Assembly: GCA_016699595.1 (NCBI GenBank)
Contig: CP064982.1
Span: 379,829-443,828, forward strand
Length of the DNA stretch: 64,000 nucleotides
Direction of reading: 5' to 3'
Source: a bacterium
GTDB lineage: Bacteria > Patescibacteriota > Dojkabacteria > GCA-016699595
Shown here: piece after piece, positions 1-59,292 of the stretch
Numbering within the stretch: position 1 is the first letter of the stretch
Layout of the letters: each line of letters starts with the position of its first letter
Program-made: the position numbers and the translations under genes
The notes under the pieces: generated by a model
The model's input: the letters and a program-made list of their open reading frames with translations, nothing else
Told to the model about the DNA's origin: nothing
The model's database searches: none

Positions 1-3000
1 AAAGATACGCTAAGTTAATCTCAACGACCACAGATCCCAAAGAAAGACAAAAATTAAGTCAACAACTAAAGAAAACTAAAGAGAAATTAAATAGCGATGT
101 TGCGAATGCGAAAGTAGATATTGAAAATCATTATAATGAAGAGAGAAAGATTGTTGCAGAAAACAAAAGAGCTATTGAAATTCTAGTAGCGAGAAACATA
201 GACTATGCAAGTTTGCCTCCAATGGAATTACTGGCAATTACTTGGCTTATCGAAGAAGAAATAAACTTTGGAGCAAATAGTGAAATTTTGAAATCAGCTC
301 AAAATTTGGCAAAGTATTATACAGTAACTAGGCAAGCAGATAGACAATTCAATGACCTTCAAGGACGACTCGGCATAAGGGATGTACATAAATTAGGAAA
401 TATACCCCCATGGGTCAATTTGACAAGAAGGGAAGTCGTTGATGATCAAATCAAAACATTCAGAGATTGGGAATTTTCAAATGGACATGACAAAGCAGAG
501 AGAGTAGCGCAATTGATTTCACCAACTAGCTTCGACAAAAATTATGCAACTGTTTTAACTATTAGGGAGAATGAAATTGCAAAAATGAAGGATTTGAAAA
601 TAATTGATGATGATGGATATTACTCTTTGCAAAGAATTGCAGATCTTAATGAGTTGAAAAAGAAGGATGCAAAATCATTAACTGCAGAGGAACTGGCTAC
701 TTTGCAAGTATTTGCAGACATAGAAGACGAATTGACAGCAAATGTCATTACAACTGAAGCAAGAGCTAGACTTACACCGTCAGCTAAAGCAAATTTACTT
801 GAAGAACTAGGTAGAAACGATTTGAAATGGTTACTTACTAGAAAAGGCGAACAAGGGTTAGACCCAAATGAAGATATAGCAGAAAGAATGATTCGCGAAA
901 TGATCGCGCAAGGTTCAAGAGATGTAGGACTCTATATGGCAAAAGTACAAAGAGAAATCACTGGACCGGATGATTCTGGCAAATATATTGAAGATATAGT
1001 TGCACAAACAAAGGAAAGTTTCTTACCTACATACCTAAAGACTCAAGACCTCGCTAGTAGGGCTCATGCAGTTGCCAAGGAAAATGTTGCGTTGCTTATG
1101 CAACAAAATTCTTTCAAAAAATCATACCCCGAACTGCAAGCAAATGACTTGGTTCGTGACATTGCAGAAGCATTGGAAGTTTCGTACAGATGCATTTTGG
1201 AAAGTGAAATGATAGTTCCATCATCAGTTACACAAATCAAACTTACTGGTGATGGACAGATAGCAACTATGATTGAAAGAATTTTGAAAGAAGGTCAAGG
1301 AGCTACTCAACAGATAGAAGATATAGTACATGATGCTTCAAATACACAGAGCATGAGTCCTGATCCTGATGACACTGAATCTCCAACTGCAATCAAAGCC
1401 AAAAAAAGTGTTCCTCAAAAACATGCGGAAGTATTGGTACGATCTTTCCATCAAGCTCCAAGTCCTGACATGATGAGACTTGCATTCCCGGAGTACAATA
1501 GCTCTATAGTTTCAGGTATTAGATTGGATACTGAAGAAGCAAGGAAGCATTATGCAGAGAAATTCGATGTTAGCAGTAATGTGGAAATGGCAACCACCAT
1601 TGCTAGCTACACTTCCGCAAATAACTTAACAAATTACCTAGTATCTACTTTCAAAGGTGGAGGTGCTTGGTTAATTTACAAAAAAAACAAACAGGAACAA
1701 AAAAAAGCTGAAAAGAAACTTAAGTTTTGGGCAGCAATAAACTCTATCCCGATTTTAGGCAATATCAGTGAGATTCATGATGCTATAACGGAACTTGGGA
1801 TCATTTTACCACAACAATGGCAATCCGAACTGAGATCTTATGGCTCAAAGATGTACAAGGATGGAAAAGTCAATCCGTTGTTGCCAACATTGCTTTCAGT
1901 GAGAAATGGCAGGAATGAACCTATTCTAACGAAATATGCATATACCTTGGGTGTACTATCAGAAAATAGTAACGATCATTTTTCCAAAGTACTTGGTAAC
2001 TTCCTTGGAACCAGAGATGAAAGAGCCAAATACAAAGGAGGATTTGCAGACATTCCTTTTCTTACAAAGAGTGTCGTTTGGATCAAGCCAAAAATGCAAA
2101 TCAAGGATGGAAGTGGAAATTTACTCAAAGATGAATTTGGGAAGCCTTTGAAGTTCAAGAAAGCCTACAAAGAAACTGTTGATGGACCATTGAAGAGATC
2201 ATGGTCTGTAAATCAAAGATTTACAGATCCTTTGTTACAAAGCCTACGGTTGGTTGACTACAGAGCTGTAAATATTGGAGGAGAAAATGTCATTATGAGG
2301 GTCAATGTCCCTATGAATGCTCTCAGCAATGCATATCATAGATCTTTTGATGCAGTACTTACTAGGATCTTCGATCCTGGGACGAATTTACCTTATAGTC
2401 AAAACAGCGTTATAGGAACTATCAACAATGGAAGGGTGCAAGTAAACAAAAGGCTGAAACTCGGAGACATTGACAACAAGACAAAAGTTACAAAACTACA
2501 AGGGATAATAATTGATACAAAAACAAATAAAAGAAGATCTACTGTAGATATTATTTTTAGAATAGCTATTCATATTGTAAAAGAAGTCATAGTCGAAACG
2601 GTGAAAGAAGTTGGTCAATTTGTAGACCATAGGTTTGATAATGTAAAGCAATACAGGAGGTTGAAATCTTACTTCAGAGAAGCCTCAACTTCATCAGTTG
2701 AACTTTCAAGATTTGCACTAAATAGATTGAAAACAAGCATGAACCTTTTGCGCGTAACTGCTGGTGGAATTGCAAAGTCTCTACCTGCAGGTGCTGTTGG
2801 TAGTGTAGCTGGTGGATATTTAGGAAGCTATCTAAATCCTATCCTTTCACCTATTTTAGGTAACAATGCAGGTACTATAGTTGGAGCAACAATCGGAGGT
2901 ACATTGTCAGCATCTGCCAAGTTTTCTGAATATATGTTTTCTCCACAGTATAAACTGGGTGGATATAGTAGGTTTCAAAAGGCAGTAATGGAGTTCAATG

Positions 3001-5993
3001 GTGCAGAATGGAAGATGATAGATGGGAAAATGCAGTTTGTTGGCAAAGATAAGTTATTGAATATATACAGGTCTCTTCCTGATAATTATTTTTCAATACT
3101 ATCTTCATCAGGCAAAGTCATCAATTCTACAAGTGTAATTCATACAATAAGAGAAGGAATTGATTCAGGGACTATGAGATTGAATGCTCTTGGTGAGATT
3201 GAAAGCATTGATAGAGCTACTGGTAAGTGGATACTGCACGAATTTTCCTCAGGTGAATCTTTGAAGTTAGTAACAAATGCTGAAGGCATTCGGTCTCTTG
3301 CAAACAGGTCACTCGAATTTGTTGATGGAAAGATTGTATCAAAGGGATTCGTGAATTTGTTTGACAATATGAGTGGTAAATGGGGACTTGTACCTCTAGG
3401 TGCTGGACTTGGAGCTGCTGCCGGTACTGGAGTGGCATACTTGATAAACAAGGGTTTTGATGCAGTAGGATTAGGATTTATAAATTTACCTTATGCTCAA
3501 TTTGCTATTGTAGGAACTATTATTGGCGGTACCGCCCCGATAATTATAAACTGGGGATTGCCAAACATAGCAAATGCATTAAGTCCAGAAAGCTCTTTCG
3601 GTAAGTATATGGGTAGGCTTTCTAGGTTCACTCAAGATCCAGCATCTCTATTGATACAAAACAAAGCAAACTCATTTTACCGGTGGCAAAGTGCTTTATC
3701 TTCAGCCAAAAGTGGCATGTATGTATGGTCATCTGCGACATTGCTTGCTGAAATATTCAATTGGGGAAATCCCTTAGTCACAGGACTTGTTGTTGGAGCT
3801 GGAGCATTCGCTCTTGATTATGGAGTCAGAACATTGGTAGTTCCAAGACTTACTGCATTTCGTGCTATGCTCGCAGAAACTGCGCTTGGTAAATTTGGAT
3901 CTGCACTTGTACACTTGCCTGTTATGGATTCTATTGGACTAGGTTGGGAATACATTAAGTTTAATGATATGTTTGTCCAACCATATCTAACTAGTGGATT
4001 GAATCTAAAAACCTACCTTTTTGGTGGAGATTATACACAAGTTAAATTGTTACATTTACAAGATGGTATAAACATGGGTGGTTTGGTCGATGTGAATGGA
4101 CAGTTACTTACTTTAGATGAAGCCAGAGCACAAGGAATAAACCTAAATGGTGCACGAGTAGAGTATAGAGAAACTAGATCCTTTCAAGGTATACTCAGGA
4201 TGCCTTGGGTCAATCTCATATTTCTTGGAAGTGCATGGACTATACTTGGATATCAATATGCCATAGCAAAGAGTTCTTTTGTTTTTTTCAGAACATTGGC
4301 AGAGAAGTTTCCAAATTTAAGAAGGTTGCAACCTTTGGTTGGACAACAAGGATCTTCGATTTGGGGACGATTTGTACAAAGTAGAGCTGGACAAATATTT
4401 GTAGAAAGTAGACCTGTGACATTTTTCACAAGAATTCCTGCCGGACTATCTTCATGGGGAGCAGAGGCAACTGCAAATATGGGAAATTTCGGAAGATTTG
4501 CGCGATTTGCAACTGGAAGTGTTTGGAAATTTATCAAAGGAGTTGTAAATGCTATTAATCCTCTTACTTGGAGCCTTAATAGTCTGACTATGGGTAACCT
4601 TACAGGTGGATTCATAGGAGCTGCAATTGGAACGGCTATACTAACTGCATTGGGAGTACCTATGGTGCCTGCAGTCATAATTGGGGCAGCAATTGGTGGC
4701 ACTATTTTTAGTTATATAGGAGCTGGCATCGCCTTGTCAATAGTTTCAGCAACAGGGCCAATAGGTTTTCTTCTCAGCACATTAATTGTATCTGTTACTA
4801 CTTCCATAGGTCATGTGCTTGGTGGTTTAGTGGGAAATTTTATAGACAAAACATTTTTTGCTGCAGCTCGGGCTGCACAAGCTTCTATGCATGCATTGAC
4901 AAGTTTAGTCAGCATATTCTCGCTTGCCAAAGCGATCCTTGATGGAGATTGGAGCAAAACTATCATAAATATCATGCAGATGGCTATGGGAGCAGTTGTA
5001 GTTGCTCCTGTAGTTGTTGTTGGAGTAGTGATAATCCCTCAGTTGATAACTCCAACTACCCTTCCTCTTAGCCAATTATTATTACTACCCCCATCTCTAT
5101 ATGTAACAAAAAATGTCAATGTAGGAAGCTATGATCCGTCTGTGCCATCTATAAAATATACTATAACTATCAATCCAACTGATGGCCCAATGCTAGTAAA
5201 TTTAATTGATGATCCAGCAAGCACTGTTTTGATACATCCTATAAGTGGCAGTGGCTGGGATTTTGCAACTATTGATGCCTTAACAAATAATATAGTTGTA
5301 GCCGGACTTCTGAATGAAAGCGTATCTTTAACTTATGAACTGATGCTTGCTGATACTTTAGAAAATTTAAGTGGTATATGTAATAATTTAACTGGGACCA
5401 CACGAACATTAAACGACCAAAATGCAACTGATCAAAGTGTAGTATCCAGTGTATGTGTAGATAAATATGGCAACCCTATTGCAGATCCTACTCACCCAAA
5501 TGTGATTCTTGCCGGACTTCCTATGAATCCGTCTTCTGTCACAAATATGGCTTCATGTTTTGGAGGATCAGCTGGACATCATGGGATAGATCTCTCTACT
5601 CAAGCTGCTGCAACTGAACCGATTTATGCTGTAGCTGATGGTACTATAGTGTACTCAGGTTCTGCTTATGATCCCAATTATTGTACATTTATGAATGGTC
5701 ATGTATATTGCGGAGGTTATGGCAGACTTATCAAGCTAAGGTTAAATAGTGGAGAGTATGTTTACTATGGTCATATAAACGAGGAGTATGTCTCAGTCGG
5801 TGATACAGTTGCAAAGGGAGACATCCTTGGATTGTCAAACAACCGAGGCACTTCCACTGGATCTCATTTACACTTGGAAGTTAGAGGGTCTGATGATAAT
5901 GTATCAAACCAACTAGACCCTTGTGAAATTTTCACCACAGATGGTGGACAGAGTATATGTAGTTCATATGCAGGCGGAGATCGTTGCATATAA
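1..5993 (+). CDS. Giant membrane-associated protein (5' end outside window; >1,990 aa) with Gly/Ala-rich hydrophobic central region and C-terminal M23/LytM metallopeptidase domain
   Basis: The frame of ORF 213..5993 stays open back to position 3, so the TTG at 213 is not the real start and the CDS is 5'-partial. The C-terminus has the M23 motifs HHGID (HxxxD) and SHLHLE (HxH). Residues ~850-1650 are long Gly/Ala/Ile-rich predicted TM/glycine-zipper segments. Confidence 0.8.
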   Translation, partial: RYAKLISTTTDPKERQKLSQQLKKTKEKLNSDVANAKVDIENHYNEERKIVAENKRAIEILVARNIDYASLPPMELLAITWLIEEEINFGANSEILKSAQNLAKYYTVTRQADRQFNDLQGRLGIRDVHKLGNIPPWVNLTRREVVDDQIKTFRDWEFSNGHDKAERVAQLISPTSFDKNYATVLTIRENEIAKMKDLKIIDDDGYYSLQRIADLNELKKKDAKSLTAEELATLQVFADIEDELTANVITTEARARLTPSAKANLLEELGRNDLKWLLTRKGEQGLDPNEDIAERMIREMIAQGSRDVGLYMAKVQREITGPDDSGKYIEDIVAQTKESFLPTYLKTQDLASRAHAVAKENVALLMQQNSFKKSYPELQANDLVRDIAEALEVSYRCILESEMIVPSSVTQIKLTGDGQIATMIERILKEGQGATQQIEDIVHDASNTQSMSPDPDDTESPTAIKAKKSVPQKHAEVLVRSFHQAPSPDMMRLAFPEYNSSIVSGIRLDTEEARKHYAEKFDVSSNVEMATTIASYTSANNLTNYLVSTFKGGGAWLIYKKNKQEQKKAEKKLKFWAAINSIPILGNISEIHDAITELGIILPQQWQSELRSYGSKMYKDGKVNPLLPTLLSVRNGRNEPILTKYAYTLGVLSENSNDHFSKVLGNFLGTRDERAKYKGGFADIPFLTKSVVWIKPKMQIKDGSGNLLKDEFGKPLKFKKAYKETVDGPLKRSWSVNQRFTDPLLQSLRLVDYRAVNIGGENVIMRVNVPMNALSNAYHRSFDAVLTRIFDPGTNLPYSQNSVIGTINNGRVQVNKRLKLGDIDNKTKVTKLQGIIIDTKTNKRRSTVDIIFRIAIHIVKEVIVETVKEVGQFVDHRFDNVKQYRRLKSYFREASTSSVELSRFALNRLKTSMNLLRVTAGGIAKSLPAGAVGSVAGGYLGSYLNPILSPILGNNAGTIVGATIGGTLSASAKFSEYMFSPQYKLGGYSRFQKAVMEFNGAEWKMIDGKMQFVGKDKLLNIYRSLPDNYFSILSSSGKVINSTSVIHTIREGIDSGTMRLNALGEIESIDRATGKWILHEFSSGESLKLVTNAEGIRSLANRSLEFVDGKIVSKGFVNLFDNMSGKWGLVPLGAGLGAAAGTGVAYLINKGFDAVGLGFINLPYAQFAIVGTIIGGTAPIIINWGLPNIANALSPESSFGKYMGRLSRFTQDPASLLIQNKANSFYRWQSALSSAKSGMYVWSSATLLAEIFNWGNPLVTGLVVGAGAFALDYGVRTLVVPRLTAFRAMLAETALGKFGSALVHLPVMDSIGLGWEYIKFNDMFVQPYLTSGLNLKTYLFGGDYTQVKLLHLQDGINMGGLVDVNGQLLTLDEARAQGINLNGARVEYRETRSFQGILRMPWVNLIFLGSAWTILGYQYAIAKSSFVFFRTLAEKFPNLRRLQPLVGQQGSSIWGRFVQSRAGQIFVESRPVTFFTRIPAGLSSWGAEATANMGNFGRFARFATGSVWKFIKGVVNAINPLTWSLNSLTMGNLTGGFIGAAIGTAILTALGVPMVPAVIIGAAIGGTIFSYIGAGIALSIVSATGPIGFLLSTLIVSVTTSIGHVLGGLVGNFIDKTFFAAARAAQASMHALTSLVSIFSLAKAILDGDWSKTIINIMQMAMGAVVVAPVVVVGVVIIPQLITPTTLPLSQLLLLPPSLYVTKNVNVGSYDPSVPSIKYTITINPTDGPMLVNLIDDPASTVLIHPISGSGWDFATIDALTNNIVVAGLLNESVSLTYELMLADTLENLSGICNNLTGTTRTLNDQNATDQSVVSSVCVDKYGNPIADPTHPNVILAGLPMNPSSVTNMASCFGGSAGHHGIDLSTQAAATEPIYAVADGTIVYSGSAYDPNYCTFMNGHVYCGGYGRLIKLRLNSGEYVYYGHINEEYVSVGDTVAKGDILGLSNNRGTSTGSHLHLEVRGSDDNVSNQLDPCEIFTTDGGQSICSSYAGGDRCI

Positions 5994-15881: not shown

Positions 15882-17357
15882 ATGTCAAATATCGGACAAT
15901 CACTACAACAAGTAAGAGAATTTAGAGTTCAAAAATTAAACAAGCTGAAGGAATTGGGATTTGACCCATATCCTGCTCGAGTTCAAAAAGACAAAAACAA
16001 TGCAGAACTTATAAATAACTTTGACGAATTGCAAGGGAAAGATTTTTTCATAACCGGAAGAATTGTCTCTATCCGAAGTTATGGTAAATTGTTGTTCCTT
16101 GATGTGCAAGATGAATCAGGCAAAATTCAATGCATTGGTATGCCACAAAATGTGATTGGACTAGAAACAAAATATTTAGAATTTGGACAGTTAGATCTTA
16201 TTGACAATGGAGATTTTGTAGAAGTCTTTGGGACTCTAGGCAAATCAAAAACTGGTGAAATCTCTATATTAGTCAAAAGCATCCGAATTATCACAAAGTC
16301 CCTTAGACCAATTCCAGATGAACTCAATGATGTAGAAGAAAGACAAAGAAAAAGATATCTGGATATAAATGTGAATGGATCAAAAGACAAACTTGACTTA
16401 CAAGCAAGATTTGAGAGAAGATCCAAGTTCTGGCAAGCAAACAGGGACTTCTTAAACTCCAAAGGTTTCATTGAGATGAATATGCCTGTTTTGGAACTCA
16501 CTACAGGAGGAGCTGATGCAAATCCATTTGTAACTCATATGGATGCTATAGACCAAGACTTTTACTTGCGTATTTCTCACGAATTACCACTCAAAAGGCT
16601 AATTGGAGCTGGCTACGAGAAAGTTTATGACATTGGTCCAAGATTCAGAAATGAAGGTTTTTCTGATGAACATTTGCCTGAGCATATTGCTATGGAATGG
16701 TACTGGGCATATGCTGATTTTCAAAAGGGAATGGAATTTATGGAAGAAATGTTTAAGTTTATCTCATATGAAGTTTGGGGCACGACAAAATTTGAAAACA
16801 TGAAAGGCTTTGAAGAAATAGATCTTGAAAAAAAATGGGAAGTTATAACTTATGAGCAAATTTTGCAAGATAGATTTGGAATTGATATTTGGAATGTTGA
16901 TTTGGACAAAGTGAATGTAGAACTTGCCAAGTTTGATGATAAAGCAGAAAATATTAATCGAGGTATTGACAAGCTTTGGAAGAAAATTCGAGCAACTATC
17001 GGAGGTCCAGTTTGGATGATTTATGAGCCTGCATTTCTTTCCCCACTTGCAAAGCCAAGTGATACTGACAAAAGAATAACAGAACGATTTCATCCCATAA
17101 TTGCTGGATCAGAACTTGGAAATGGATTTAGTGAATTGAATGACCCTCAACTTCAACTCCAGAATTTTTTGGAACAAGAAAAACTTAGAGAAGAAGGAGA
17201 TGCTGAGGCGCAAATGTTGGATGATGACTTTGTAGAAATGCTTGAGTACGGTATGCCTCCAACTTGTGGATGGGGACATGCAGAAAGAAATTTTTGGTTC
17301 TTTGAAAATGTTTCAGCAAGAGAAGGAGTGATTTTTCCACCTATGAGAAGAAAGTAA
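15882..17357 (+). CDS. lysS: Lysyl-tRNA synthetase (class II)
   Basis: OB anticodon-binding domain followed by the class II core (FRNEGFSDEHLPEHIAMEWYWAY, GGxxERxxM-like C-terminus). 491 aa. Confidence 0.9.
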   Translation: MSNIGQSLQQVREFRVQKLNKLKELGFDPYPARVQKDKNNAELINNFDELQGKDFFITGRIVSIRSYGKLLFLDVQDESGKIQCIGMPQNVIGLETKYLEFGQLDLIDNGDFVEVFGTLGKSKTGEISILVKSIRIITKSLRPIPDELNDVEERQRKRYLDINVNGSKDKLDLQARFERRSKFWQANRDFLNSKGFIEMNMPVLELTTGGADANPFVTHMDAIDQDFYLRISHELPLKRLIGAGYEKVYDIGPRFRNEGFSDEHLPEHIAMEWYWAYADFQKGMEFMEEMFKFISYEVWGTTKFENMKGFEEIDLEKKWEVITYEQILQDRFGIDIWNVDLDKVNVELAKFDDKAENINRGIDKLWKKIRATIGGPVWMIYEPAFLSPLAKPSDTDKRITERFHPIIAGSELGNGFSELNDPQLQLQNFLEQEKLREEGDAEAQMLDDDFVEMLEYGMPPTCGWGHAERNFWFFENVSAREGVIFPPMRRK

Positions 17358-18649
17358 TGTATTTTACCTCATTTTCTCAAAACACAAACTTCAAAAAATA
17401 CAAATTAGAAATATTAAATAAAGCTTGGTTTCAAGACATTGTTACAAACTTTGAAGATATCACAGCTTTGTCAAAAGAAGAAAGAGAGTTTTGCAAAACT
17501 CAATTTGACAATGAACTTCAAGAATTGAAAAATATCAAGTCAAATAGCCCAACAAAAACCGGCTCTGGAAGAATTATTTCAAAAAAGGCACAATCATTGG
17601 TCCAAACAGAGGAAAATTCCACATTGAAGTTTTCTCAGATTTTCAATGCCGAAGCTAGAGAAGAGTTCAAAAGTTCCAAATTAGAATTTGCAAAAATAAT
17701 AGATTTATCAGCTACTTTACATTTTGAACTAATTAAACTTCTATTTGACAAAGAATCAAATACTTGGAAATCTCTTTTCAAGCTTTATGATGGCAAGAAA
17801 ATTGAATCAGTTTTGATGAGATTTGAAGATGGTCGCAACTCAGTTTGCGTTAGTTCTCAAGTTGGTTGCCCTGTTGGTTGTATTTTTTGTGCTTCTGGTC
17901 AAATGGGATTTATGAGGAATCTAACCTCACAAGAGATTGTCGATCAAGTTTTATTTTGGGCTAGACTTATGAAGCTTATGCCCAAAAACTTGGAAAATGA
18001 TTTGCCTAACCAACAACCTACTTCCACTTCCAATCACTTTTTGAAGGAAAAAGATAATTTTGAAAAAGTTACAAACATAGTTTATATGGGAATGGGCGAA
18101 CCTATGTTGAATTATGAAAATGTAGTTGAAAGTTTGAAAATACTTACAAATCCAAATGAATTTGGTTTAGGAGACAGGCATATAACTTTGTCTAGTTCAG
18201 GTTATATACCACAACTTGAAAAGTATATGACCGAGGGAATGAAAACAAAGCTTGCAATTTCGCTTCACGCACCTAGTCAGGAACTTAGAGAAAAATTAAT
18301 GCCAGTTGCAAAAATTTATTCGCTTGATAAGTTGATGGAATTCATAAAGAAGTATGAGAAATATACCGGGAAAAGAATTAGTTATGAATATACCTTGATA
18401 GATCAGGTAAACGACACTCAAGAATGTGCAAGAAATTTGGCTAAGTTACTCAAAAATCGAGAGGCACATGTAAATTTGATACCTATGAATCCAATTGCTG
18501 AAGCAAAAGATTTGAGAAAATCAGATCTACGAAATGTTTATGCGTTTTATGAAACTTTGAAACATTTCAAAATTCCTACAACAATTAGAATCACCATGGG
18601 TGACAAAATACAAGCAGCTTGTGGTCAACTTGCAAACAAAAATGGTTAG
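17357..18649 (+). CDS. rlmN: 23S rRNA (adenine2503-C2)-methyltransferase RlmN (radical SAM)
   Basis: CVSSQVGCPVGCIFCASG radical-SAM Cys cluster, MGMGEPMLN motif. Start overlaps the lysS stop (TAATG). Confidence 0.85.
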   Translation: MYFTSFSQNTNFKKYKLEILNKAWFQDIVTNFEDITALSKEEREFCKTQFDNELQELKNIKSNSPTKTGSGRIISKKAQSLVQTEENSTLKFSQIFNAEAREEFKSSKLEFAKIIDLSATLHFELIKLLFDKESNTWKSLFKLYDGKKIESVLMRFEDGRNSVCVSSQVGCPVGCIFCASGQMGFMRNLTSQEIVDQVLFWARLMKLMPKNLENDLPNQQPTSTSNHFLKEKDNFEKVTNIVYMGMGEPMLNYENVVESLKILTNPNEFGLGDRHITLSSSGYIPQLEKYMTEGMKTKLAISLHAPSQELREKLMPVAKIYSLDKLMEFIKKYEKYTGKRISYEYTLIDQVNDTQECARNLAKLLKNREAHVNLIPMNPIAEAKDLRKSDLRNVYAFYETLKHFKIPTTIRITMGDKIQAACGQLANKNG

Positions 18650-23959: not shown

Positions 23960-24040
23960 TAGTGACGCTAGTTTTCAACTCAAGGGGCGACTACGCTTTT
24001 CACTCTACTTTGCTACATTCACTCTCGTACAACAGGCATT
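23960..24040. repeat. GC-rich element family F4 (copy b)
   Basis: See 20774-20870. Confidence 0.5.
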
Positions 24041-24983: not shown

Positions 24984-25006
24984 AAATCTTTTGCTATAAT
25001 CTTCTA

Positions 25007-26342: not shown

Positions 26343-26352
26343 TTTTAAATTT

Positions 26353-27780: not shown

Positions 27781-28582
27781 TAAATTTGCTAAAATAATTT
27801 TGAAAGCACTTGGAGTATTATTTGTACTAGTTTTGATCATTATATTTTACTCAGTTTATATTGAAAGGTTCAATACCCAAATTCAATATACAAAAATAAA
27901 CTTAGGTTTTGAGAAGAGGTTTATTTTGATTTCTGACTTACATTTAGGTAAATTCAAAGATGCAAGTTACTTGGCTTTGGTAGTAAAGAAAATAAATAGC
28001 GTAGAAAATGTTGATGCTGTGCTTATAGCTGGTGACTTTGTTTATAAACAAGACAATACTAAGCTGTCAGAATACTTCAAGCCGTTATCCGAGATAAGAT
28101 ATCCAACTTTTGCGGTTGTGGGAAATCATGATGTACTTGGAAGTGCAGCAGACATGAAAAATCAGATTGTCGAGGTTTTGGAAAGTAATAAAGTGAATGT
28201 TTTGACTAATGAAACTCTTGACTTTGAAAACATCCAAATTGTTGGACTTGGGGATAGATATGTAGGAAATAATCATTCTACTATTTTGAATACTTTGACT
28301 ATTGAAGATAAAGTTTTAGTTTTAGCTCATAACCCAGATTCAGTGAGAGATTATCTAAGTTTGGATAATGTTGATCTTACACTTGCAGGCCACACACATT
28401 GCGGACAAATCAGGTTACCAATTTTATATAAGATGATTTTGCACGTAGAAAATAATGATGGGATTCAGTTTGATAAAGGTTATTATAAATCTCACAAGTT
28501 ATTTATAACTTGTGGTTTAGGTGAATTTGGAATTCCTGCAAGACTTTTCAACCCTCCAACTATTGATGTACTTGATTTATGA
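27770..28582 (+). CDS. Membrane-anchored metallophosphoesterase
   Basis: N-terminal TM helix. Motifs ISDLHLG, IAGDFV, VVGNHD, GHTHCGQIRLP. Confidence 0.75.
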   Translation: MLINKFAKIILKALGVLFVLVLIIIFYSVYIERFNTQIQYTKINLGFEKRFILISDLHLGKFKDASYLALVVKKINSVENVDAVLIAGDFVYKQDNTKLSEYFKPLSEIRYPTFAVVGNHDVLGSAADMKNQIVEVLESNKVNVLTNETLDFENIQIVGLGDRYVGNNHSTILNTLTIEDKVLVLAHNPDSVRDYLSLDNVDLTLAGHTHCGQIRLPILYKMILHVENNDGIQFDKGYYKSHKLFITCGLGEFGIPARLFNPPTIDVLDL

Positions 28583-28650
28583 CGATACTCTAATTCAAAA
28601 CTTTATTCCTTCTACTATGATTAATTTTTTTATGAAAGTAGCACTTGTCT

Positions 28651-29436
28651 TTACAACATATACATCATCACTGCCAAACTTGGTATTATCCCCATCGAAT
28701 TTATTTTGCCCTTCATCGGAATTTTGACTATACGATCCGCACCATCAATCAGAACTCGACTCAATCCTTGATATTCAGAACCAACCATTACAGCAAGTGG
28801 CCTTGGATATTGAATGTCATTATAATACTCTGAAGCATTTGGTGAAGTTGCGACTGTCAAGACATTTTGTTTTCTAGCCCAGTCAATAAAATTCACGCTT
28901 GAATCAATGTAGAAATTTACTGTGAAAAATGCACCCAGGCTACTTCGGATAACAACTGGAGAAAAAATATCTGTTCTTATATCAGTTACTATCACACCAT
29001 CTGCACCAACATTATCAGCGAGCCTCAAAATACCTCCTAGATTTGAACTTTCTTCAATTGATTCTGCAACAATGAAAATTGAGTTGTCTGTAACTTGAAT
29101 ATCATCAATATCACTCACTTCTTTGCTAGCAAGTGCCATAAGTCCTTCCATACTGCTTTGGATTGTACTTAGCTTTTGGAACACTTGCGTACTTATTTCC
29201 TGAACTTCGACATTTTGATTGATGACAAGTTTTATCAAACTTTCATTATCAAACTTTTTATGAAATAACTCTTTGCAGATATAAAGTTTAGAAATTGGAA
29301 AATTTGATTCTATAGCCAATTTAACTAGCCAATACCCTTCTATCAAAAACTGCTTCTTACTATCTCTATATTCTTTTTGTTTAAGTTTTGCTAAATCCTT
29401 TATCTCTGAGTTTTGTGTACTCGTAATTACTTGCAT
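28651..29436 (-). CDS. RNA 2'-O-methyltransferase, TrmH/SpoU (RlmB-like) family
   Basis: SPOUT motifs NLGGILRLADNVGADGVIV, VMVGSEYQGLS, IVKIPMKGKINSMGII. Confidence 0.7.
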   Translation of the reverse strand: MQVITSTQNSEIKDLAKLKQKEYRDSKKQFLIEGYWLVKLAIESNFPISKLYICKELFHKKFDNESLIKLVINQNVEVQEISTQVFQKLSTIQSSMEGLMALASKEVSDIDDIQVTDNSIFIVAESIEESSNLGGILRLADNVGADGVIVTDIRTDIFSPVVIRSSLGAFFTVNFYIDSSVNFIDWARKQNVLTVATSPNASEYYNDIQYPRPLAVMVGSEYQGLSRVLIDGADRIVKIPMKGKINSMGIIPSLAVMMYML

Positions 29437-29441: not shown

Positions 29442-30527
29442 TTACATTCTGACTAATGCTTCCACAAACAAATCCAATTCTCCATCAAGCACAGATTCTG
29501 CATCACTAGTTTCTACATCAGTTCTCAAATCTTTGACCAATTTATAAGGATGTAGAACATAATTTCTTATTTGATTGCCCCAACCAGCTATCTTATGCTC
29601 ACCCTTGATTCCTGATAGTTCCTCCTGCCTTTTTTGCTCTTCCAGTAGGAATAACTTTGCTTTCAACATTGCCATTGCTGATTTTTTGTTTGCTAGTTGT
29701 GATCTACCTGTTGAACATGTGACAACTATACCACTTGGCTTGTGAATCAATCTCACTGTAGTAGCAACCTTGTTTACATTCTGACCACCTGCTCCACCGG
29801 AACGAACAGCACTAAATTCTATGTCTGACTCTGGAATATCTATATCATTTTCTGTAGAGTTATCCTCGTCGAACAATGGGGCGACTTCCACTCCAGCAAA
29901 ACTCGTTTGTCTAAGTCCCTGTGCATTGAATGGTGATACGCGAACTAACCTATGAGTACCAAGCTCATTTTTGAGTAATCCATAAGCAAACTTTCCATAA
30001 ACTTCAAAATATACTGAACTAATTCCTGCTTCAGTTCCATAGACCTTATCAACAATTTCATATTTAAAACCTTTTTTTTCAAAATACTTTATATACATTC
30101 GCTCAAGCATTGCAGACCAATCGCATGCTTCGGTTCCTCCCTGACCTGCATGGATAGAAAATAATGCTGGAAGATTGTCAAATTTACCTGATAAGTAAGT
30201 CTCAATTTCAAGATTACTTACTAAACTTACATAATGTTGATAATCTTCAAGAATTTGTTCCCGGAGCAAAGAGTCATCTACATCTTTATTCAGATCTTCC
30301 AACTCTTGCAAACTATTTAGCTCATTCAAAATCCCCTGTGTCTTAAGTTCAGAGTTGATCTCCGCAATTCGTTGATTTACTTTTCTAGCTTTAGATTGGT
30401 CTGACCAAAAGTTTGACTCCAAGGTTTGCTTTTCAAGACTTAGCAGCTCAATATTTAACTTATCAAAATCTTTTTTTTTGATAATTTCTTCAATTTTGGA
30501 GATCAGTTCTTTAAACATTAAATACAC
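29442..30527 (-). CDS. prfB: Peptide chain release factor 2
   Basis: GGQ motif ([13 protein letters not shown]) and RF2-specific SPF tripeptide (RVSPFNAQG). Single uninterrupted ORF, so no +1 frameshift site. Confidence 0.9.
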
Positions 30528-32683: not shown

Positions 32684-33427
32684 TTAATCTGTCATTTTTA
32701 AAGCGTTTATATCAGATTCCCAAGCATCATGGTTTGGGTTCCACCATTCCAAACCCTTAAATTGCAATTTATAATTATCTTTTTTCGAGCTATAACTCCC
32801 CAAATAAAAGTACTTTCTTTTTGTTTGATGTGCCAACTTTATGGAACTTGTCATCATAAACATTCCAAAAGATGTATTTACTAACCCTTGCTCATAGAAA
32901 GGGTATGCATAGTGTAATATTTCCGTGTTTTCAAAACATAGACACATTCCAGCAATTTTATTGGCATTTGTAAACAGAATAAGTGAATTCATATTTAATT
33001 GCCCTTGAAATAACTTTTTTATAACCTGAACTGAGAATAAATTCTCTCCAAACTTTGTCAAATAGAAATCTTTCATCCATTTTCCGAGACTATAATCATA
33101 GCTTTGGTAAGGTAATTTTATTAGATTCATTTCCGTATCAGGAAACTTTGCCAAAATTCTTCGATTTTCAGAAGTGAAAGTAAACTTAGATAAATCAATT
33201 CGTAAAAGTTTCGTAGATTGCATCAGACCATGAGCTTTTCTAGTATATTTGAAGCCTTTGTCATACATATCTGTTGCATCATGCTGATAAGTAACAACTA
33301 TCTCTTTGTAAAATTTATAATCAAACATACAAAAATTATAATACTTTTGTAATAACTTTTTCAAAATAACAGTAATTTGTAATAAAAAAAGCAATTTATC
33401 CAACACTTCCTTCCATACTAAGTTCAA
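32684..33427 (-). CDS. Aminoacyl-tRNA--protein transferase-like protein (ATE1/Bpt family C-terminal domain)
   Basis: C-terminal [26 protein letters not shown] fits the ATE_C YyYLGY...KM.YK...P.E motif. The track start overlaps the sufB end by 32 nt, so the true start is probably the internal ATG at 33328. Confidence 0.45.
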
Positions 33428-34817
33428 TTAACCTATTTAGTTCAACAGCGTATTCCATAGGGAGAGTTTTTGTAATTGGTTCAAGAAATCCTGCAACTAT
33501 CAGATTTTGCGCATCTTTTTCAGATAATCCTCGTGACATCAGGTAATAAATCTGACTTTCGTTTACCTTTCCAGTTGTTGCTTCATGAGCAATAGTTGCA
33601 GTATCATTATCGATTTTCATACTTGGATAAGTATCAGTTTCTGAAATATTGTCAAGTATAAGTGCGTCACAATTTACTTTAACTTTAGCATTTTCTGCAT
33701 TTTTATTTATTCTAACAAGTCCTCGGTAGCTTGTTTTACCTCCAAGCAAACAAACTGATTTTGAATTTATGATTGAGCTAGTATTTCGAGCAGCATGAAT
33801 CATCTTTGCACCATTATCTAAAATCTGTCTATTTATTATATTATTATTTTTTATTTCACCTCTTGCAATTGCCAAACTCAAAACCTCACCATGAGCCTTT
33901 TCTCCAAGGAGTACACAACTTGGATATTTCATCGTAACTTTACTACCTAGATTTCCATCTATCCATTCCATCTTCGCATTCTCGTAAACAAAAGCCCTTT
34001 TTGTTACTAGATTATATACATTTTTACTTCAATTTTGGATTGTAGTATATCGAACTTTACTATTTGGTAGACAAATTATTTCTACTACAGCTGCGTGCAA
34101 AGAATCTGAACTATAAACTGGTGCACTGCATCCCTCTATATAATGCAATTCCGAACCTTCATCAGCAATTATCAAAGTTCTTTCAAATTGTCCCATATTC
34201 TTTGCATTAATTCTGAAATATGCTTGAAGTGGCAATTCAACTTTAACGCCTTTTGGTATATAGATGAAACTTCCTCCTGACCAAACTGCACTATTCAAAC
34301 TTGCGAATTTATTATCTGAGTAAGGAATTACAGTTCCAAAATACTTTTTGAACAATTCTTCATGTTCTCTCAACCCTGAATCAGTGTCTAAAAAAACAAC
34401 ACCAATATCTTTCAGTTTTTTCATTAAACTTCCATAAATAACCTCAGATTCATACTGAGCTTTGACTCCGGCTAGCATTTCTCTTTCAACTTGAGGAATT
34501 TTCAACTTTTCGTAAGTTTCTTTTATTTCATCTGGAAGTAAATCCCAATTGCCAACCTGTGCATCAGTTGGCTTGATATAGTAATAAATATCTTCAAAAT
34601 CAATTGCAGATAGATCAGCACCCCAGCTTGGAATTTGGCGAGCTGTGAAATGTTCAAAAGCTTTCAATCTATATTCAAGCATCCAAGATGGTTCTTGTTT
34701 CATTCCAGAAATCTTTCTAACTATATCTTCAGACAAACCTTTTTCAGGTTTATAGACATAATTTTCAGGCATAGAAAAGCCTTCTTTATATTCTGTTTGG
34801 AAATTTAAGTCTTGCAA
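33396..34817 (-). CDS. sufB: Fe-S cluster assembly protein SufB, interrupted by an in-frame TGA at 34029-34031 (minus strand)
   Basis: ORFs 34029..34817 (SufB N-terminal 262 aa) and 33396..33971 (SufB C-terminal 191 aa, ending ...[22 protein letters not shown]) are in the same frame. Only a TGA stop separates them and there are no other stops. The joined length of 474 codons fits full-length SufB. Confidence 0.85.
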
Positions 34818-35886: not shown

Positions 35887-36798
35887 TTACATTTCTTTCA
35901 AGACATCTCTAAGTATGGCTGCTTTTTCAAAATACATTTGATCAGCAAAAAGCTCCATCTGCAACTTCAATTCGGTTTTCAAAAGCCTCTTTTCCTTGTT
36001 ATTCATAACCTTGTACTTAGCTATAATTTCATTCGGATCGATGTTCATCACTTTTGCTTCAATGTCTACAGGATTTTCCGATCGAGTCAAAATCGCAGTG
36101 GAATTTATTTCCTTCATAACTGACTTTGGAACAATATGATGCTGAATATTGTAATTCTCTTGAATTTCTCTTCTTCTATAAGTTTCATTAATCGCAAAGA
36201 TCATCGAATCTGTCAAATGATCTGCATACATCAAAACTTTGCCCGACTCATGTCTTGCAGCACGACCTATAGTTTGAATCAGACTTGTTTTTGACCTAAG
36301 GAACCCTTCCTTGTCTGCATCCAAAATTGCAACTAATGAAACTTCAGGTACATCCAGCCCTTCTCTGAGCAAATTTATCCCAACAACCACATCATATACT
36401 CCCAACCTAAGATCTCGTAAAATTTCAACTCTCTCTATTGCATCTAGATCAGAATGGAGATACTGAACCTTGATATTCTTCTCCTTCAAATATTCTGTCA
36501 ATTCTTCTGACATTCTTTTGGTCAAAGTAGTTACAAACACCCTTTGTTTCTTTTCTACAACTAAAGTAATTTCAGATATTAAGTCAATGATTTGTGAAAA
36601 CAAGTCTCTTTGAGGTTTAATAATTCTATGTTTTACATTTTCTATCAAAGTAGAATTTTCTATTTCAAATCTCAAAGTGGAAAAGTTTTGAGAATCAATT
36701 GGCCTAATCTCAATCTCGGGATCAAGAAGACCGGTAGGTCGAATTATCTGTTCAACTATTCCTTCATAATTTTTATCTAAATGATTTTTTTTATCCAT
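35887..36798 (-). pseudogene. uvrB: uvrB 3' fragment (C-terminal half of excinuclease ABC subunit B only)
   Basis: Protein aligns to UvrB from about residue 395 onward ([12 protein letters not shown] ... [18 protein letters not shown] ... [30 protein letters not shown] ... C-terminal UVR motif [11 protein letters not shown]). The N-terminal ~390 aa (ATP-binding, beta-hairpin) are absent. Only 117 bp separate it from the next, unrelated gene. Confidence 0.7.
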
Positions 36799-36915: not shown

Positions 36916-39327
36916 ATGAGAACGATAAAAAAATCATCAGATATTATTATGACATTGATACTTTTGTTTGTTTTTTTTAATGTTAATGCCTCTGCTGCAA
37001 TAAATTACTTTATTTCAGGAGAAGTTGGAGGAAATAGCACTACATCTAGATTGGAAACTCAAAACCTGATGAATTCATGGAGCAGTGAAGCAGATAGGCT
37101 AGGATGCGATATTGGGCCAGCTAGTATTTCAAGTCCATTTATAGGAAATACTATGAATATAAGTTCAAATGGTATTCCCATGACTATTACGACAAGAAAT
37201 CAAAATGATAATTTTTATGGCACTTTAGGAAATAATGTAGATATTTTCACTAGCGCTACTTTACAGTCAAATTCACCACGACCCGCCAATTTTTATAATA
37301 CATCATCTCAACCACCTTACTGGGCAGATACAGCAGGTAATGCAACTACTAGAAATGCAGTATTATTTGAATTCACTTCACCTATCAGAGGATTTGGTGC
37401 TTGGTTTGGCGATCTTGAGACTAGTAACTTAGGTACTGAGGCTATTATCAGAGTATTTGACAATGCGGGAAATCAAATTGGACCTGACCATGCTATTCCA
37501 GCAGATACATCTATATCTGGTGTACCTGGTAGCTGTGGAGGATCATTTGTAGGTTGTGGTAATTCTACAACTAGATTTGTAGGATTTTGGAGCTTACCTT
37601 CTGATAATGTTTACAAAGTATTAGTTGTAGTTGGTGACGATGATGTAGGTGGAAATGGCTACTCAGAGAGGCTTTCTTTTATAGGTCCAATGATTCCGAA
37701 TAATTGTGGATATAGTGTAGGTAATCAGGTATGGAATGATACAAACAATAATGGCATTTATGAATCAGGTGAACTAGGAATACCTGGAGTTACTTTAAAT
37801 TTATATAATGATTTGGACAATTCAAACTCCATAAGCTCAGCAGACATGATCGCAAGTGATTTAAATGGAAACTTAGTGAGTTCAATACAAACTGATTCAA
37901 ACGGGAAGTATTTGTTTGAAAATTTATTGAGTGGAAACTACATAGTAAGCATAGATAAATCGACCGTACCTATGCAATATGGCATTAGCTCAATTTTCAC
38001 TGATTCAGATAATGATATAAACAATGATAACAACGGACTATTTGGAACCACATTTATGCCAAATTATTCATCAAATGCAATTAATCTTTCTCTTAGAAAT
38101 GAGCCTGTAAACGATCAAGATACTTTGCTTAATGGAGTCCCTATATTGTTAGGTCATGATAATGATAGTACATCAAACCTTACTGTTGATTTTGGTTTTT
38201 TCAATCAGCCAAAAATCACGATAAATAAAATTGTTGAAAATGGTAGCCTTGGAACTTTGGATGTAACTAATTTTCCATTGAAACTAGTGAACAATATAAC
38301 TTCTGAAGAAGTCAATATAATCAGCGGACAACTCTATTACTTGCCAGTTGGTGAATGGAAATTAGTAGAAACCACAAATTCAAATTATACTGGTTCTATT
38401 TATTGTTCGAACTCAAGTGAGTATGAAGCTTGGTCAAGTGAAGAAGATATATTTGGCGTAAATACTTTTGAGTCAACTTACGATCTGCCTATCTTAGAGG
38501 CCAATAGCACAACTAGCTGTGATCTAACAAATACATTTAACCCAGCACACATAATTTTTACTAAACAAGTTGTTGGGGGATCAAATTTACCAAATGACTT
38601 TAGTTTCAATCTAACAAATTCTATAGATACTCAAACAATTGTTAATCCGAAAAACATACATATTGATGAGCAAATCGAAATCGTTGGTGGAAATTATACG
38701 ATTGATGAAAATAATGCAGTAAACTACAATCCAACTTATGTATGTACAATTGGCAATTATATTGATCAAGATGAAGAGTTAGTCTTCACAACTAGAATAA
38801 CTACTTATGGAAATGAATTTGAAATTTTGCCAGGTGAAATTGCAAAATGTAATGTCACCAATACTTACATATCAAATAATTTGAAGATCGAAAAGACTAG
38901 TAACCAATCTTACTTCACAAAATCAGGTGATAAACTGGACTATCTATACAAGGTTACAAATTTAGGAAATTATGATATTTCTGATTTGAAAGTCTTTGAT
39001 AACAAAATCTTAGATATAAAATGTCCAAAAGTTGCGTTGATTGTAAACGAATCCGTAGTGTGCAATGGTGAATATTTTGTGACACAAGATGATGTAAAAA
39101 ACAAAAGCATTACTAATGTTGCCTATGCAACAGCTAAGTCTATAAATGGCATTTCCATTAGTTCAGTCGAAGTAAATTTAAAATTGAATCTAAAAAACGG
39201 AAATATCTTGGCAGTTACAGGAAATAACATTAGTAATACATATATTGGTATAAACTTATTTGTAATTGCGATATTATTGCTATTACTAAATCGTCTATTC
39301 AAAACAAGAGTGTTAGTGGTTGAGTAA
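36916..39327 (+). CDS. Secreted cell-surface protein with SdrD-B/Cna-B-type domain and LPXTG-like (LAVTG) sortase sorting signal
   Basis: Signal peptide (MRTIKKSSDIIMTLILLFVFFNVNASA). SD-repeat B-domain motif GNQVWNDTNNNGIYESGELGIPGVTLNLYND ... DSNGKYLFENLLSGNYIV. C-terminus LAVTG + hydrophobic stretch IGINLFVIAILLLLL + basic tail NRLFKTR. Confidence 0.65.
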   Translation: MRTIKKSSDIIMTLILLFVFFNVNASAAINYFISGEVGGNSTTSRLETQNLMNSWSSEADRLGCDIGPASISSPFIGNTMNISSNGIPMTITTRNQNDNFYGTLGNNVDIFTSATLQSNSPRPANFYNTSSQPPYWADTAGNATTRNAVLFEFTSPIRGFGAWFGDLETSNLGTEAIIRVFDNAGNQIGPDHAIPADTSISGVPGSCGGSFVGCGNSTTRFVGFWSLPSDNVYKVLVVVGDDDVGGNGYSERLSFIGPMIPNNCGYSVGNQVWNDTNNNGIYESGELGIPGVTLNLYNDLDNSNSISSADMIASDLNGNLVSSIQTDSNGKYLFENLLSGNYIVSIDKSTVPMQYGISSIFTDSDNDINNDNNGLFGTTFMPNYSSNAINLSLRNEPVNDQDTLLNGVPILLGHDNDSTSNLTVDFGFFNQPKITINKIVENGSLGTLDVTNFPLKLVNNITSEEVNIISGQLYYLPVGEWKLVETTNSNYTGSIYCSNSSEYEAWSSEEDIFGVNTFESTYDLPILEANSTTSCDLTNTFNPAHIIFTKQVVGGSNLPNDFSFNLTNSIDTQTIVNPKNIHIDEQIEIVGGNYTIDENNAVNYNPTYVCTIGNYIDQDEELVFTTRITTYGNEFEILPGEIAKCNVTNTYISNNLKIEKTSNQSYFTKSGDKLDYLYKVTNLGNYDISDLKVFDNKILDIKCPKVALIVNESVVCNGEYFVTQDDVKNKSITNVAYATAKSINGISISSVEVNLKLNLKNGNILAVTGNNISNTYIGINLFVIAILLLLLNRLFKTRVLVVE

Positions 39328-58923: not shown

Positions 58924-59292
58924 TTAGTTTGTGGCCTCCAACTTTTTCAATGATTCAGCACTAAGCATTGCACATTTCATTCTACTCGGATTTGGTTCAA
59001 ACTGAAGTAGATTCTTTATATATACTTCATCAATTTTCTCAATTTCTGAAATATTTTTACCAACTAATTCTTCACAAAGCAGTGAAGTTGCAGCTATTGA
59101 AACTGAACAACCACTACCTTGGAAACCAATATTTGTAATAATACCATTTTCAACATTCAGCCAAAGCTCAATTTCATCACCACATGAGTAGTTTGTAAGT
59201 TTTGAATGATGTGTGTATTTATGTAATTTATTGAAGTACCTTGGGTTTTTATAATGGTCAATTATGTTTTGTTGGATGAAAGTATTATTCAT
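58924..59292 (-). CDS. sufU: Fe-S cluster assembly scaffold SufU/IscU (NifU N-terminal-like)
   Basis: Three conserved Cys (SCGDEIELW, GSGCSVSIA, LLCEEL) in a 122-aa protein. Confidence 0.75.
   Translation of the reverse strand: MNNTFIQQNIIDHYKNPRYFNKLHKYTHHSKLTNYSCGDEIELWLNVENGIITNIGFQGSGCSVSIAATSLLCEELVGKNISEIEKIDEVYIKNLLQFEPNPSRMKCAMLSAESLKKLEATN

What the first reader, a model, noticed from the sequence alone, without database searches (positions are those of the whole stretch)
33396..34817. sufB is interrupted by a single in-frame TGA at the position of a conserved Trp codon
The two SufB ORFs are in the same frame and are separated only by TGA (minus strand, 34029-34031). The junction translates ...VRYTTIQN-[TGA][11 protein letters not shown].... 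In the SufB sequences I can recall, QN is followed by W (TGG). The stop is therefore one G->A transition away from the ancestral codon. The full-length protein would be 474 aa. Possible explanations are a recent nonsense mutation (pseudogene, or a SufB functionally split in two), a sequencing error, or low-level UGA read-through as Trp. A genome-wide UGA reassignment is unlikely, because every other long conserved gene here is intact with TGG for Trp and an RF2 gene (SPF motif) is present.
Basis: partly seen in the sequence, partly recalled or inferred. Interest (0 to 1): 0.7.

Follow-up and report, generated by a model that had tools for sequence, protein, structure and literature searches.

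The report
Lone stop codon inside sufB
An otherwise perfect iron-sulfur assembly gene (sufB) in a tiny wastewater bacterium carries one stop codon where an essential tryptophan should be; this is most likely an uncorrected sequencing error or a very recent mutation, not a change in the genetic code.

Summary
sufB (minus strand, 33396..34817) has one in-frame TGA at 34029-34031. It sits at the codon for the tryptophan that is W287 in E. coli SufB, a functionally critical residue. That Trp is present in all 12 nearest homologues and in every SufB among 80 genome loci. The nearest relative's DNA reads TGG.

Nothing else in the gene is damaged. The window uses the standard code: RF2 is intact, 9 of 55 other ORFs end in TGA, and those ORFs hold 181 TGG codons and no in-frame TGA.

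The window comes from GenBank CP064982, a circular 761,814-bp Dojkabacteria (Patescibacteria) genome from activated sludge. It was assembled from Nanopore R9.4.1 reads and polished with Illumina reads. The locus-tag and protein numbering implies that NCBI treats sufB as a pseudogene.

Independent Illumina-derived contigs match 23.7 kb of the window. Their only mismatch lies 44 nt from the TGA. They leave a 58-bp gap that contains the TGA, so the base has no independent support.

I estimate about 0.55 for a residual consensus error, about 0.4 for a real recent nonsense allele (dead, or leaky through Trp read-through), and under 0.05 for anything more exotic. The finding is ordinary. Checking the raw reads would settle it.

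The parts
34032..34817 (-). sufB 5' part (codons 1-262, TTG start; an alternative ATG start lies at codon 16). It ends ...VRYTTIQN.
   Evidence: Holds C230 and Q261, the equivalents of E. coli C254 and Q285.
34029..34031 (-). In-frame TGA at the codon for the invariant Trp (E. coli SufB W287).
   Evidence: Lies inside the 58-bp stretch (34006-34063) that the independent Illumina contigs do not cover.
33396..34028 (-). sufB 3' part (210 codons plus a TAA stop), same frame and fully conserved. The first possible start is ATG at 33969-33971 (M283).
   Evidence: It is 86% identical to the nearest homologue, against 79% for the 5' part. It retains K273, C383, H411 and E412, the equivalents of E. 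coli K303, C405, H433 and E434.
34074..34074 (-). The only mismatch between the window and 23.7 kb of independent Illumina-derived contigs. The window has T (ATT, Ile); contig L083 has G (ATG, Met). It lies 10 nt from the contig end and 44 nt upstream of the TGA.
29442..30527 (-). prfB (release factor 2). One intact ORF with SPF and GGQ motifs and no +1 frameshift site.
58924..59292 (-). SufU-type sulfur-transfer/scaffold protein. Context: the SUF pathway appears to be in use.
   Evidence: TIGR01994, 93.0 bits against a 92.5 cutoff.
17357..18649 (+). RlmN, a radical-SAM [4Fe-4S] enzyme. Context: a client of Fe-S assembly.
   Evidence: TIGR00048, 302 bits against a 290 cutoff.

Best explanation
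The TGA is most likely a single-base consensus error (true codon TGG) that survived polishing in a Nanopore-based metagenome-assembled genome. On this reading sufB is an ordinary, intact, functional gene. Shown: the window is CP064982, assembled with CANU from R9.4.1 reads, polished with Racon and medaka, and then given one Racon round with Illumina reads. Shown: the gene has no other defect. Shown: the one independent short-read assembly available fails to cover exactly this spot and disagrees with the genome 44 nt away. Inferred: short-read support was locally too thin to correct the long-read consensus. Inferred: TTGGAG read as TTGAAG (G-run shortened, A-run lengthened) is a plausible Nanopore miscall.
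For: 1. Provenance. Neighbouring proteins are identical to QQR93216-QQR93242 on a 761,814-bp contig. The paper's Supplementary Data 3 lists CP064982 as Fred_18-Q3-R57-64_BAT3C.481: circular, Dojkabacteria o__B142, Illumina coverage 16.5x, Nanopore coverage 51.8x, polymorphic rate 1.8e-4. The pipeline was Guppy 2.2.3 flip-flop, CANU, Racon, two rounds of medaka 0.6.5, then Racon with Illumina reads using --include-unpolished.
2. Independent reads. Contigs assembled from run SRR11674035 are Illumina-derived, since a TruSeq adapter sits at one contig end. They cover 49775-46135, 46048-42107, 42129-34064, 34005-30550 and 22301-28799. Identity is 100% except for one mismatch at 34074. They leave 34006-34063, which holds the TGA, uncovered. 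Gaps take up about 1% of the stretch examined, so landing on the only nonsense codon by chance has p of about 0.01.
3. No decay. The part after the stop is 86% identical to the nearest homologue, against 79% for the part before it. Besides the Trp, only 3 of 178 columns that are invariant in 12 relatives deviate, which is within the range seen for the relatives themselves. All known critical residues are kept.
4. The pathway looks needed. SufU and the Fe-S enzyme RlmN are encoded in the same window.
5. No public assembly among about 15 billion proteins carries either sufB fragment as a complete ORF.
Against: Residual errors in such assemblies are mostly homopolymer indels, and none of the 55 other ORFs is frameshifted. 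The assembly is therefore locally accurate and substitution errors should be rare. With 52x Nanopore coverage, only a systematic miscall would persist. The motif TTGGAG is not depleted in the window (65 copies), so there is no sign of a motif-wide miscall, although elsewhere polishing would have repaired one. I could not show that SRR11674035 is the run used for polishing. The gap could also reflect shared k-mers in this very conserved block, because an unrelated CPR genome shares the exact 31-mer with TGG. At 34074 the genome's Ile matches relatives better than the Illumina contig's Met, so the genome is not simply error-ridden here. The genome also carries a truncated uvrB that the Illumina contig reproduces exactly, so real gene decay does occur in it.
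Confidence: 0.55

Rival explanations
1. A genuine, very recent G->A nonsense mutation in the dominant strain. sufB would be a fresh pseudogene, as the NCBI numbering implies, truncated to a 262-aa fragment. That fragment lacks the Fe-S ligand region and the equivalents of the critical E. coli residues W287, K303 and C405.
For: The base is in the deposited, polished, 52x/16.5x genome. G->A is the commonest spontaneous change in AT-rich genomes, and TGG is one step from a stop (established knowledge). The assembly is otherwise exact over 23.7 kb. The same genome has a confirmed truncated uvrB. sufB has a locus-tag slot (IPJ91_02035) but no protein accession between QQR93218 and QQR93219. Other environmental SufB genes with a lone in-frame stop exist, for example L090.
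Against: There is no second lesion and no relaxed conservation downstream. SufU and a radical-SAM client in the window argue that SUF is in use. Where SUF is the only Fe-S system, loss of SufB is lethal (established knowledge for Bacillus subtilis). The only independent short-read data neither cover nor confirm the base. No related strain or species shows it.
Confidence: 0.25
2. A real TGA allele that is tolerated because the normal tRNA-Trp (anticodon CCA) occasionally reads UGA. This would restore exactly the required Trp and give a low level of full-length SufB. It would be accidental rescue, not a programmed device.
For: Near-cognate decoding of UGA inserts Trp, the one residue that would restore function at this site. 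Low-level UGA read-through as Trp is documented in E. coli, and tRNA-Trp variants raise it (PMC13092985, PMC10570021). It is also reported for Bacillus subtilis (my own knowledge). Pseudogenes with in-frame stops are expressed at low level in Salmonella (PMC9122581). The downstream half is fully intact.
Against: RF2 is intact. The TGA-A context matches 5 of the 9 genuine TGA terminators in the window, so it is not a special leaky context here. No stimulatory structure follows the stop (96 nt fold, z = -0.11). The stop is absent from all relatives. No tRNA-Trp gene lies in the window to inspect.
Confidence: 0.14
3. The lineage decodes UGA as an amino acid (code 4, Trp, or code 25, Gly), or the UGA encodes selenocysteine.
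For: UGA reassignments do occur in Patescibacteria: UGA->Gly in Gracilibacteria and Absconditabacteria, and UGA->Trp in the family JAKLIH01 (PMC13092985).
Against: RF2 is present and complete. Nine of 55 ORFs end in TGA at the expected protein ends; for example, YebC and VanY match their Pfam profiles to the end. There are 181 TGG codons and 0 other in-frame TGA in 17,954 codons. No tRNA with anticodon UCA is in the window. There is no SECIS-like fold, and the position is Trp, not Cys or Gly, in all homologues. The reassigned Patescibacteria lineages belong to other classes and lack RF2.
Confidence: 0.02

Closest known systems
Residual base errors in long-read (Nanopore R9.4.1) metagenome-assembled genomes that create apparent pseudogenes
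   Same: The assembly chemistry and polishing pipeline are documented. There is a single-base lesion in an otherwise perfect, conserved gene. Independent short-read support is missing exactly at the site.
   Different: The typical residual error is a homopolymer indel that causes a frameshift. Here the lesion is a substitution, and no frameshifts are visible in the 55 other ORFs.
Recent unitary pseudogene with an internal stop (the PGAP 'internal stop' class)
   Same: One nonsense codon interrupts a gene whose orthologues are all intact. By its numbering, the public record gives the locus no protein.
   Different: There is no further decay, and the gene belongs to a pathway that looks to be in use. 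That the allele exists in cells is not shown.
Near-cognate UGA read-through by tRNA-Trp(CCA), and 'pseudo-pseudogenes' (PMC9122581, PMC10570021, PMC13092985)
   Same: The codon is UGA and the residue required is Trp, which is what near-cognate decoding would insert.
   Different: No evidence of expression, no leaky context, no conserved stop, no stimulatory RNA structure. At most this would be an accidental rescue.
UGA->Trp reassignment (Mycoplasmatales; Patescibacteriota family JAKLIH01, PMC13092985)
   Same: A UGA sits at a conserved Trp position in a Patescibacteria genome.
   Different: Those lineages lack RF2 and do not end genes with UGA, and they carry many in-frame UGA codons. This window has RF2, uses UGA as a terminator, and has a single in-frame UGA.

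Membership tests
SufB (Fe-S cluster assembly scaffold, TIGR01980) | Full-length match above the curated cutoff | tested here: met
   672.4 bits against a 346.4 cutoff, profile positions 2-448 of 448, with the stop written as X. E = 6.5e-107 to E. coli SufB 5awf_A.
SufB (Fe-S cluster assembly scaffold, TIGR01980) | Critical residues of E. coli SufB (C254, Q285, W287, K303, C405, H433, E434) are present | tested here: not met
   C230, Q261, K273, C383, H411 and E412 are present. The W287 equivalent is TGA. As written, the gene cannot encode a complete SufB.
Genetic code with UGA = Trp (table 4) | Loss of release factor 2 | tested here: not met
   prfB is present: TIGR00020, 412.7 bits against a 370 cutoff, profile positions 2-352 of 353, with SPF and GGQ motifs.
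Genetic code with UGA = Trp (table 4) | UGA is not used as a terminator, and many in-frame UGA codons sit at conserved Trp positions | tested here: not met
   Nine of 55 ORFs end in TGA. There are 181 TGG codons and 0 in-frame TGA in 17,954 codons outside sufB. YebC and VanY end at the ends of their Pfam profiles.
Genetic code with UGA = Trp (table 4) | A tRNA-Trp with anticodon UCA, or a tRNA-Trp(CCA) with a 4-bp anticodon stem | not testable with these tools
   The window holds only tRNA-Thr(CGU), tRNA-Ser(GGA) and tRNA-Ser(CGA). The rest of CP064982 was not available.
Selenocysteine recoding | A SECIS hairpin just downstream of the UGA, and a Cys or Sec at that position in homologues | tested here: not met
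   The 96-nt fold gives -10.3 kcal/mol, z = -0.11 against shuffles. No Rfam match beyond tRNAs. The position is Trp in all homologues.
Programmed stop-codon read-through | The stop is conserved in related genomes | tested here: not met
   All 12 nearest homologues, every SufB among 80 genome loci, and the nearest relative's DNA have Trp/TGG.
Functionally split gene (two polypeptides) | The second part has its own start and ribosome-binding site, and no essential residues are lost | tested here: not met
   No ATG, GTG or TTG lies between the TGA and M283. No Shine-Dalgarno-like sequence precedes M283. The 20 lost residues include K273, the E. coli K303 equivalent.
Recent unitary pseudogene | The lesion is confirmed in independent sequence data from the same organism | tested here: inconclusive
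   Illumina-derived contigs of SRR11674035 stop at 34064 and resume at 34005. A 98%-identical strain in SRR30164240 is covered only from 33455 downward. Neither fragment nor a full-length form is present among 15 billion proteins.

The most novel reading that the evidence does not exclude
The TGA is real and fixed, and full-length SufB is made only by Trp-inserting read-through. Fe-S assembly in this reduced symbiont-like bacterium would then be throttled by, or tied to, the balance between RF2 and tRNA-Trp.
Probability: 0.04. Interest if true: 0.55.

Novelty: already known. Interest (0 to 1): 0.15.

Why it matters
It matters little biologically. Practically, it is a clean example of how one unverified base in a long-read metagenome-assembled genome can look like a recoding event or a gene loss. 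Metabolic reconstructions of Dojkabacteria from CP064982 should not score SufB, and with it the SUF pathway, as absent until the reads are checked. If the stop proved real and fixed, it would be a natural case of an apparently needed gene kept alive by near-cognate UGA read-through. That would be of moderate interest.

Tried and rejected
- Genome-wide code change: rejected. RF2 is present, TGA is used as a terminator, and no other in-frame TGA exists.
- Selenocysteine or a stimulatory RNA structure: rejected. The fold gives z = -0.11 and Rfam finds nothing beyond tRNAs.
- Split gene or re-initiation: rejected. There is no start before M283 and K273 would be lost.
- Intein-related break: rejected. 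The longer tblastn matches in L001 and L003 contain no intein. P0002 is a chimeric partial duplication.
- Systematic miscall of the TTGGAG motif: not supported. The motif is not depleted.
- Search for an independent copy of the allele: exact look-ups of both fragments, and of W- or G-containing full-length forms, found nothing.
- Scan of JGI metagenomes for the 31-mer with either allele: found only an unrelated CPR genome with TGG.
- Homologue searches with a junction-centred query and with the N-terminal fragment: no near-identical fragment turned up.
- Related strain: a 98%-identical strain (SRR30164240) does not reach the site.
- Apparent recurrence of stops next to this Trp in other metagenomes (L090, L091): followed up. 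I judged it mainly a consequence of looking only at N-terminal fragments of 260-270 aa.

Full report
**Observation.**
On the minus strand the window reads ...CGA TAT ACT ACA ATC CAA AAT TGA AGT AAA AAT GTA TAT AAT CTA GTA ACA AAA AGG..., with the TGA at 34031-34029. The ORFs 34029..34817 (262 aa) and 33396..33971 share one frame. Translating 33396-34817 gives 474 codons with a single internal stop, so the read-through protein would be 473 aa.

With the stop masked, the sequence matches TIGR01980 SufB end to end: 672 bits against a cutoff of 346. It also matches E. coli SufB (5awf_A) at E = 6.5e-107. Counting along that alignment from Y224, the stop falls on E. coli W287. A review of the SUF machinery lists W287 among the residues critical for SufBC2D function, together with C254, Q285, K303, C405, H433 and E434 (PMC6006206).

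The 12 closest homologues (63-82% identity) all have Trp there, inside the block [21 protein letters not shown]. Every SufB among 80 loci from reference genomes reads QNWS or QNWA. The nearest relative's DNA reads CAG AAC TGG AGC.

**The genetic code in the window.**
- A scan under a code without TGA stops finds no other long ORF with a mid-gene TGA.
- In 55 other ORFs (17,954 codons) there are 181 TGG codons and no in-frame TGA.
- Terminators are TAA 40, TGA 9 and TAG 6. Five of the nine genuine TGA terminators are followed by A, as the sufB TGA is.
- YebC and VanY, both ending in TGA, match their Pfam profiles to the end.
- The ORF 29442..30527 is release factor 2: TIGR00020, 413 bits against a 370 cutoff, full length, with SPF and GGQ motifs, and no +1 frameshift site.
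- The window's three tRNAs are Thr and two Ser.
- The 96 nt around and after the TGA fold no better than shuffles (z = -0.11).

Code 4, code 25 and selenocysteine are therefore excluded as far as a 64-kb window allows. The UGA->Trp lineage known in Patescibacteriota (family JAKLIH01, class Minisyncoccia) lacks RF2 and lacks UGA terminators (PMC13092985). That is the opposite of what is seen here.

**State of the gene.**
Apart from the stop, nothing is wrong with it. The part after the stop is 86% identical to the nearest homologue, and the part before it is 79% identical. Of 178 alignment columns that are invariant in the 12 relatives, the window deviates at three besides the Trp. Leave-one-out values for the relatives themselves range from 0 to 16.

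The equivalents of C254, Q285, K303, C405, H433 and E434 are all present. A functional split is implausible. No ATG, GTG or TTG lies between the TGA and M283, and no Shine-Dalgarno-like sequence precedes M283. The 20 skipped residues include K273, the K303 equivalent.

The window also encodes a SufU-type protein (TIGR01994, just above its cutoff) and RlmN, a radical-SAM [4Fe-4S] enzyme. The SUF route therefore looks to be in use. No sufC-like ABC ATPase lies in the window. Stand-alone sufB also occurs in the nearest relative.

**Where the sequence comes from.**
Exact look-ups show that the neighbouring proteins are QQR93216 (YebC) through QQR93242 (GroEL), on a 761,814-bp NCBI contig. Locus tags run IPJ91_02030 (QQR93218, the downstream neighbour), IPJ91_02045 (QQR93220) and IPJ91_02050 (QQR93221), with RuvX as QQR93219. 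sufB therefore holds a tag slot (02035) but has no protein. I infer this from the numbering and did not read it from the record; it is how NCBI's pipeline treats a pseudogene.

The size identifies the genome in Supplementary Data 3 of Singleton et al. 2021 (PMC8012365). It is MAG Fred_18-Q3-R57-64_BAT3C.481, accession CP064982, a single circular contig. Its taxonomy is Patescibacteria; c__Dojkabacteria; o__B142. Illumina coverage is 16.5x, Nanopore coverage 51.8x, and the polymorphic rate 1.8e-4.

The methods were:
- R9.4.1 reads basecalled with Guppy 2.2.3 flip-flop.
- CANU assembly, then Racon, then two rounds of medaka 0.6.5.
- One Racon round with PCR-free 2x150 Illumina reads, run with --include-unpolished.

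**Independent evidence for the base.**
The same proteins occur on contigs assembled independently from SRA run SRR11674035. That run is Illumina, because one contig begins with 22 nt of TruSeq adapter. Five contigs map to the window:
- 49775-46135
- 46048-42107
- 42129-34064
- 34005-30550
- 22301-28799

Together they cover 23.7 kb with no indel and one mismatch. The contig coming from upstream ends at 34064, and the next begins at 34005. The uncovered 58 bp (34006-34063) contain the TGA.

The single mismatch is at 34074: the genome has ATT (Ile) and the contig has ATG (Met). It lies 10 nt from that contig's end and 44 nt from the TGA. Other junctions between contigs are an 86-bp gap and a 23-nt overlap, so gaps of this size are not unusual. 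They take up only about 1% of the stretch, so a chance hit on the one nonsense codon has p of about 0.01.

Three readings of this coincidence are possible:
- Short-read coverage was locally too thin, so this stretch kept the unpolished Nanopore consensus.
- The population is locally heterogeneous.
- The assembly graph tangles in this extremely conserved block. An unrelated CPR genome shares the identical 31-mer with TGG, which shows that cross-species k-mer sharing happens here.

No other data help. Neither fragment, nor a full-length W or G form, exists among about 15 billion proteins. A 98.1%-identical strain in SRR30164240 is covered only from 33455 downward. Two further homologue searches gave no near-identical fragment.

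**Weighing the explanations.**
For a real mutation:
- The assembly is otherwise exact and free of frameshifts.
- Substitutions are the rarer Nanopore error type.
- G->A is the commonest natural change in an AT-rich genome.
- The genome has a truncated uvrB that the Illumina contig reproduces exactly.

For an error:
- The lesion is a single base in a gene with no other decay.
- The pathway appears to be needed.
- The short reads fail to cover that very base and disagree with the genome next to it.
- TTGGAG read as TTGAAG is a run-boundary shift, a kind of miscall that Nanopore consensus can make.

A rough Bayesian tally starts from prior odds that favour a real mutation several-fold. It then applies a likelihood ratio of roughly 5-40 from the coverage gap, depending on whether SRR11674035 is the polishing run. 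The result is about 0.55 for error, 0.25 for a dead recent pseudogene, 0.14 for a real allele rescued by Trp-inserting near-cognate read-through, and a few percent for anything else. These figures are judgement, not measurement.

**Comparison with what is known, and verdict.**
Both leading explanations are ordinary: a residual base error in a long-read MAG, or an 'internal stop' pseudogene. The public record already appears to treat the locus as a pseudogene. Read-through by tRNA-Trp is a documented low-level phenomenon (PMC10570021, PMC13092985). Pseudogenes with in-frame stops are known to be expressed at low level in Salmonella (PMC9122581). Here read-through would be an accidental rescue, because the stop is not conserved and has no special context.

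The finding is real in the sequence but not novel. I score interest at 0.15. The decisive test is to look at the raw reads at this one position.

Noticed in passing
window 35887..36798 (minus): Only the C-terminal third of UvrB is encoded. It aligns to positions 423-656 of the 658-position TIGR00631 profile, with Helicase_C and UvrB domains. It has its own ATG and lies next to an unrelated gene on the other strand. The independent Illumina contig L083 has the identical arrangement, so the truncation is real. NCBI calls it a hypothetical protein (QQR93221).
   Followed up: partly
window 29442..30527 (minus): The RF2 gene is one continuous ORF. It lacks the programmed +1 frameshift site (CUU UGA C) that autoregulates prfB in most bacteria.
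   Followed up: partly
L090:898-915 and L091:3801-3818: Two unrelated high-GC environmental SufB genes read CAG AAC TGG TAG AAC AAC (QNW*NN). This is an in-frame TAG replacing the Ser codon right after the same Trp. L090 is otherwise intact, and its N-fragment cluster has 11 members. L091 has further lesions near its contig end. This is probably a selection effect, because I inspected only N-terminal fragments of 260-270 aa, but the identical change in two lineages is odd.
   Followed up: partly
window 34074: This is the only disagreement between the genome and 23.7 kb of Illumina-derived contigs (T in the genome, G in the contig; Ile against Met in SufB). It lies 10 nt from a contig end and 44 nt from the TGA. 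It is either a minor variant or a single-fragment artefact.
   Followed up: partly
P0002 (650 aa, JGI): A database 'SufB' with an intein Pfam hit is really a chimeric partial duplication. Residues 1-266 end at RYTTIR, then the protein restarts at the equivalent of residue 122. The break is in the same conserved block as the window's TGA.
   Followed up: partly
window 33396..34817 and L081: sufB stands alone, with no adjacent sufC, sufD or sufS, both here and in the nearest relative. A SufU-type gene lies 25 kb away at 58924..59292. No ABC-ATPase signature occurs in any ORF of at least 150 aa in the 64-kb window.
   Followed up: partly
window 33840..33870 (minus; SufB residues ~319-327): A lineage-specific 9-residue AT-rich insertion (GEIKNNNII) sits in a loop of SufB relative to most homologues. 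One relative (P0008) has a different insertion at the same place.
   Followed up: no
window 213..5993 (+) and 36916..39327 (+): Two very large ORFs: 1,926 aa, which runs to the window start, and 803 aa, which carries SdrD_B and CLIPPER_2 Pfam hits according to the contig annotation. Both are probably surface proteins.
   Followed up: no
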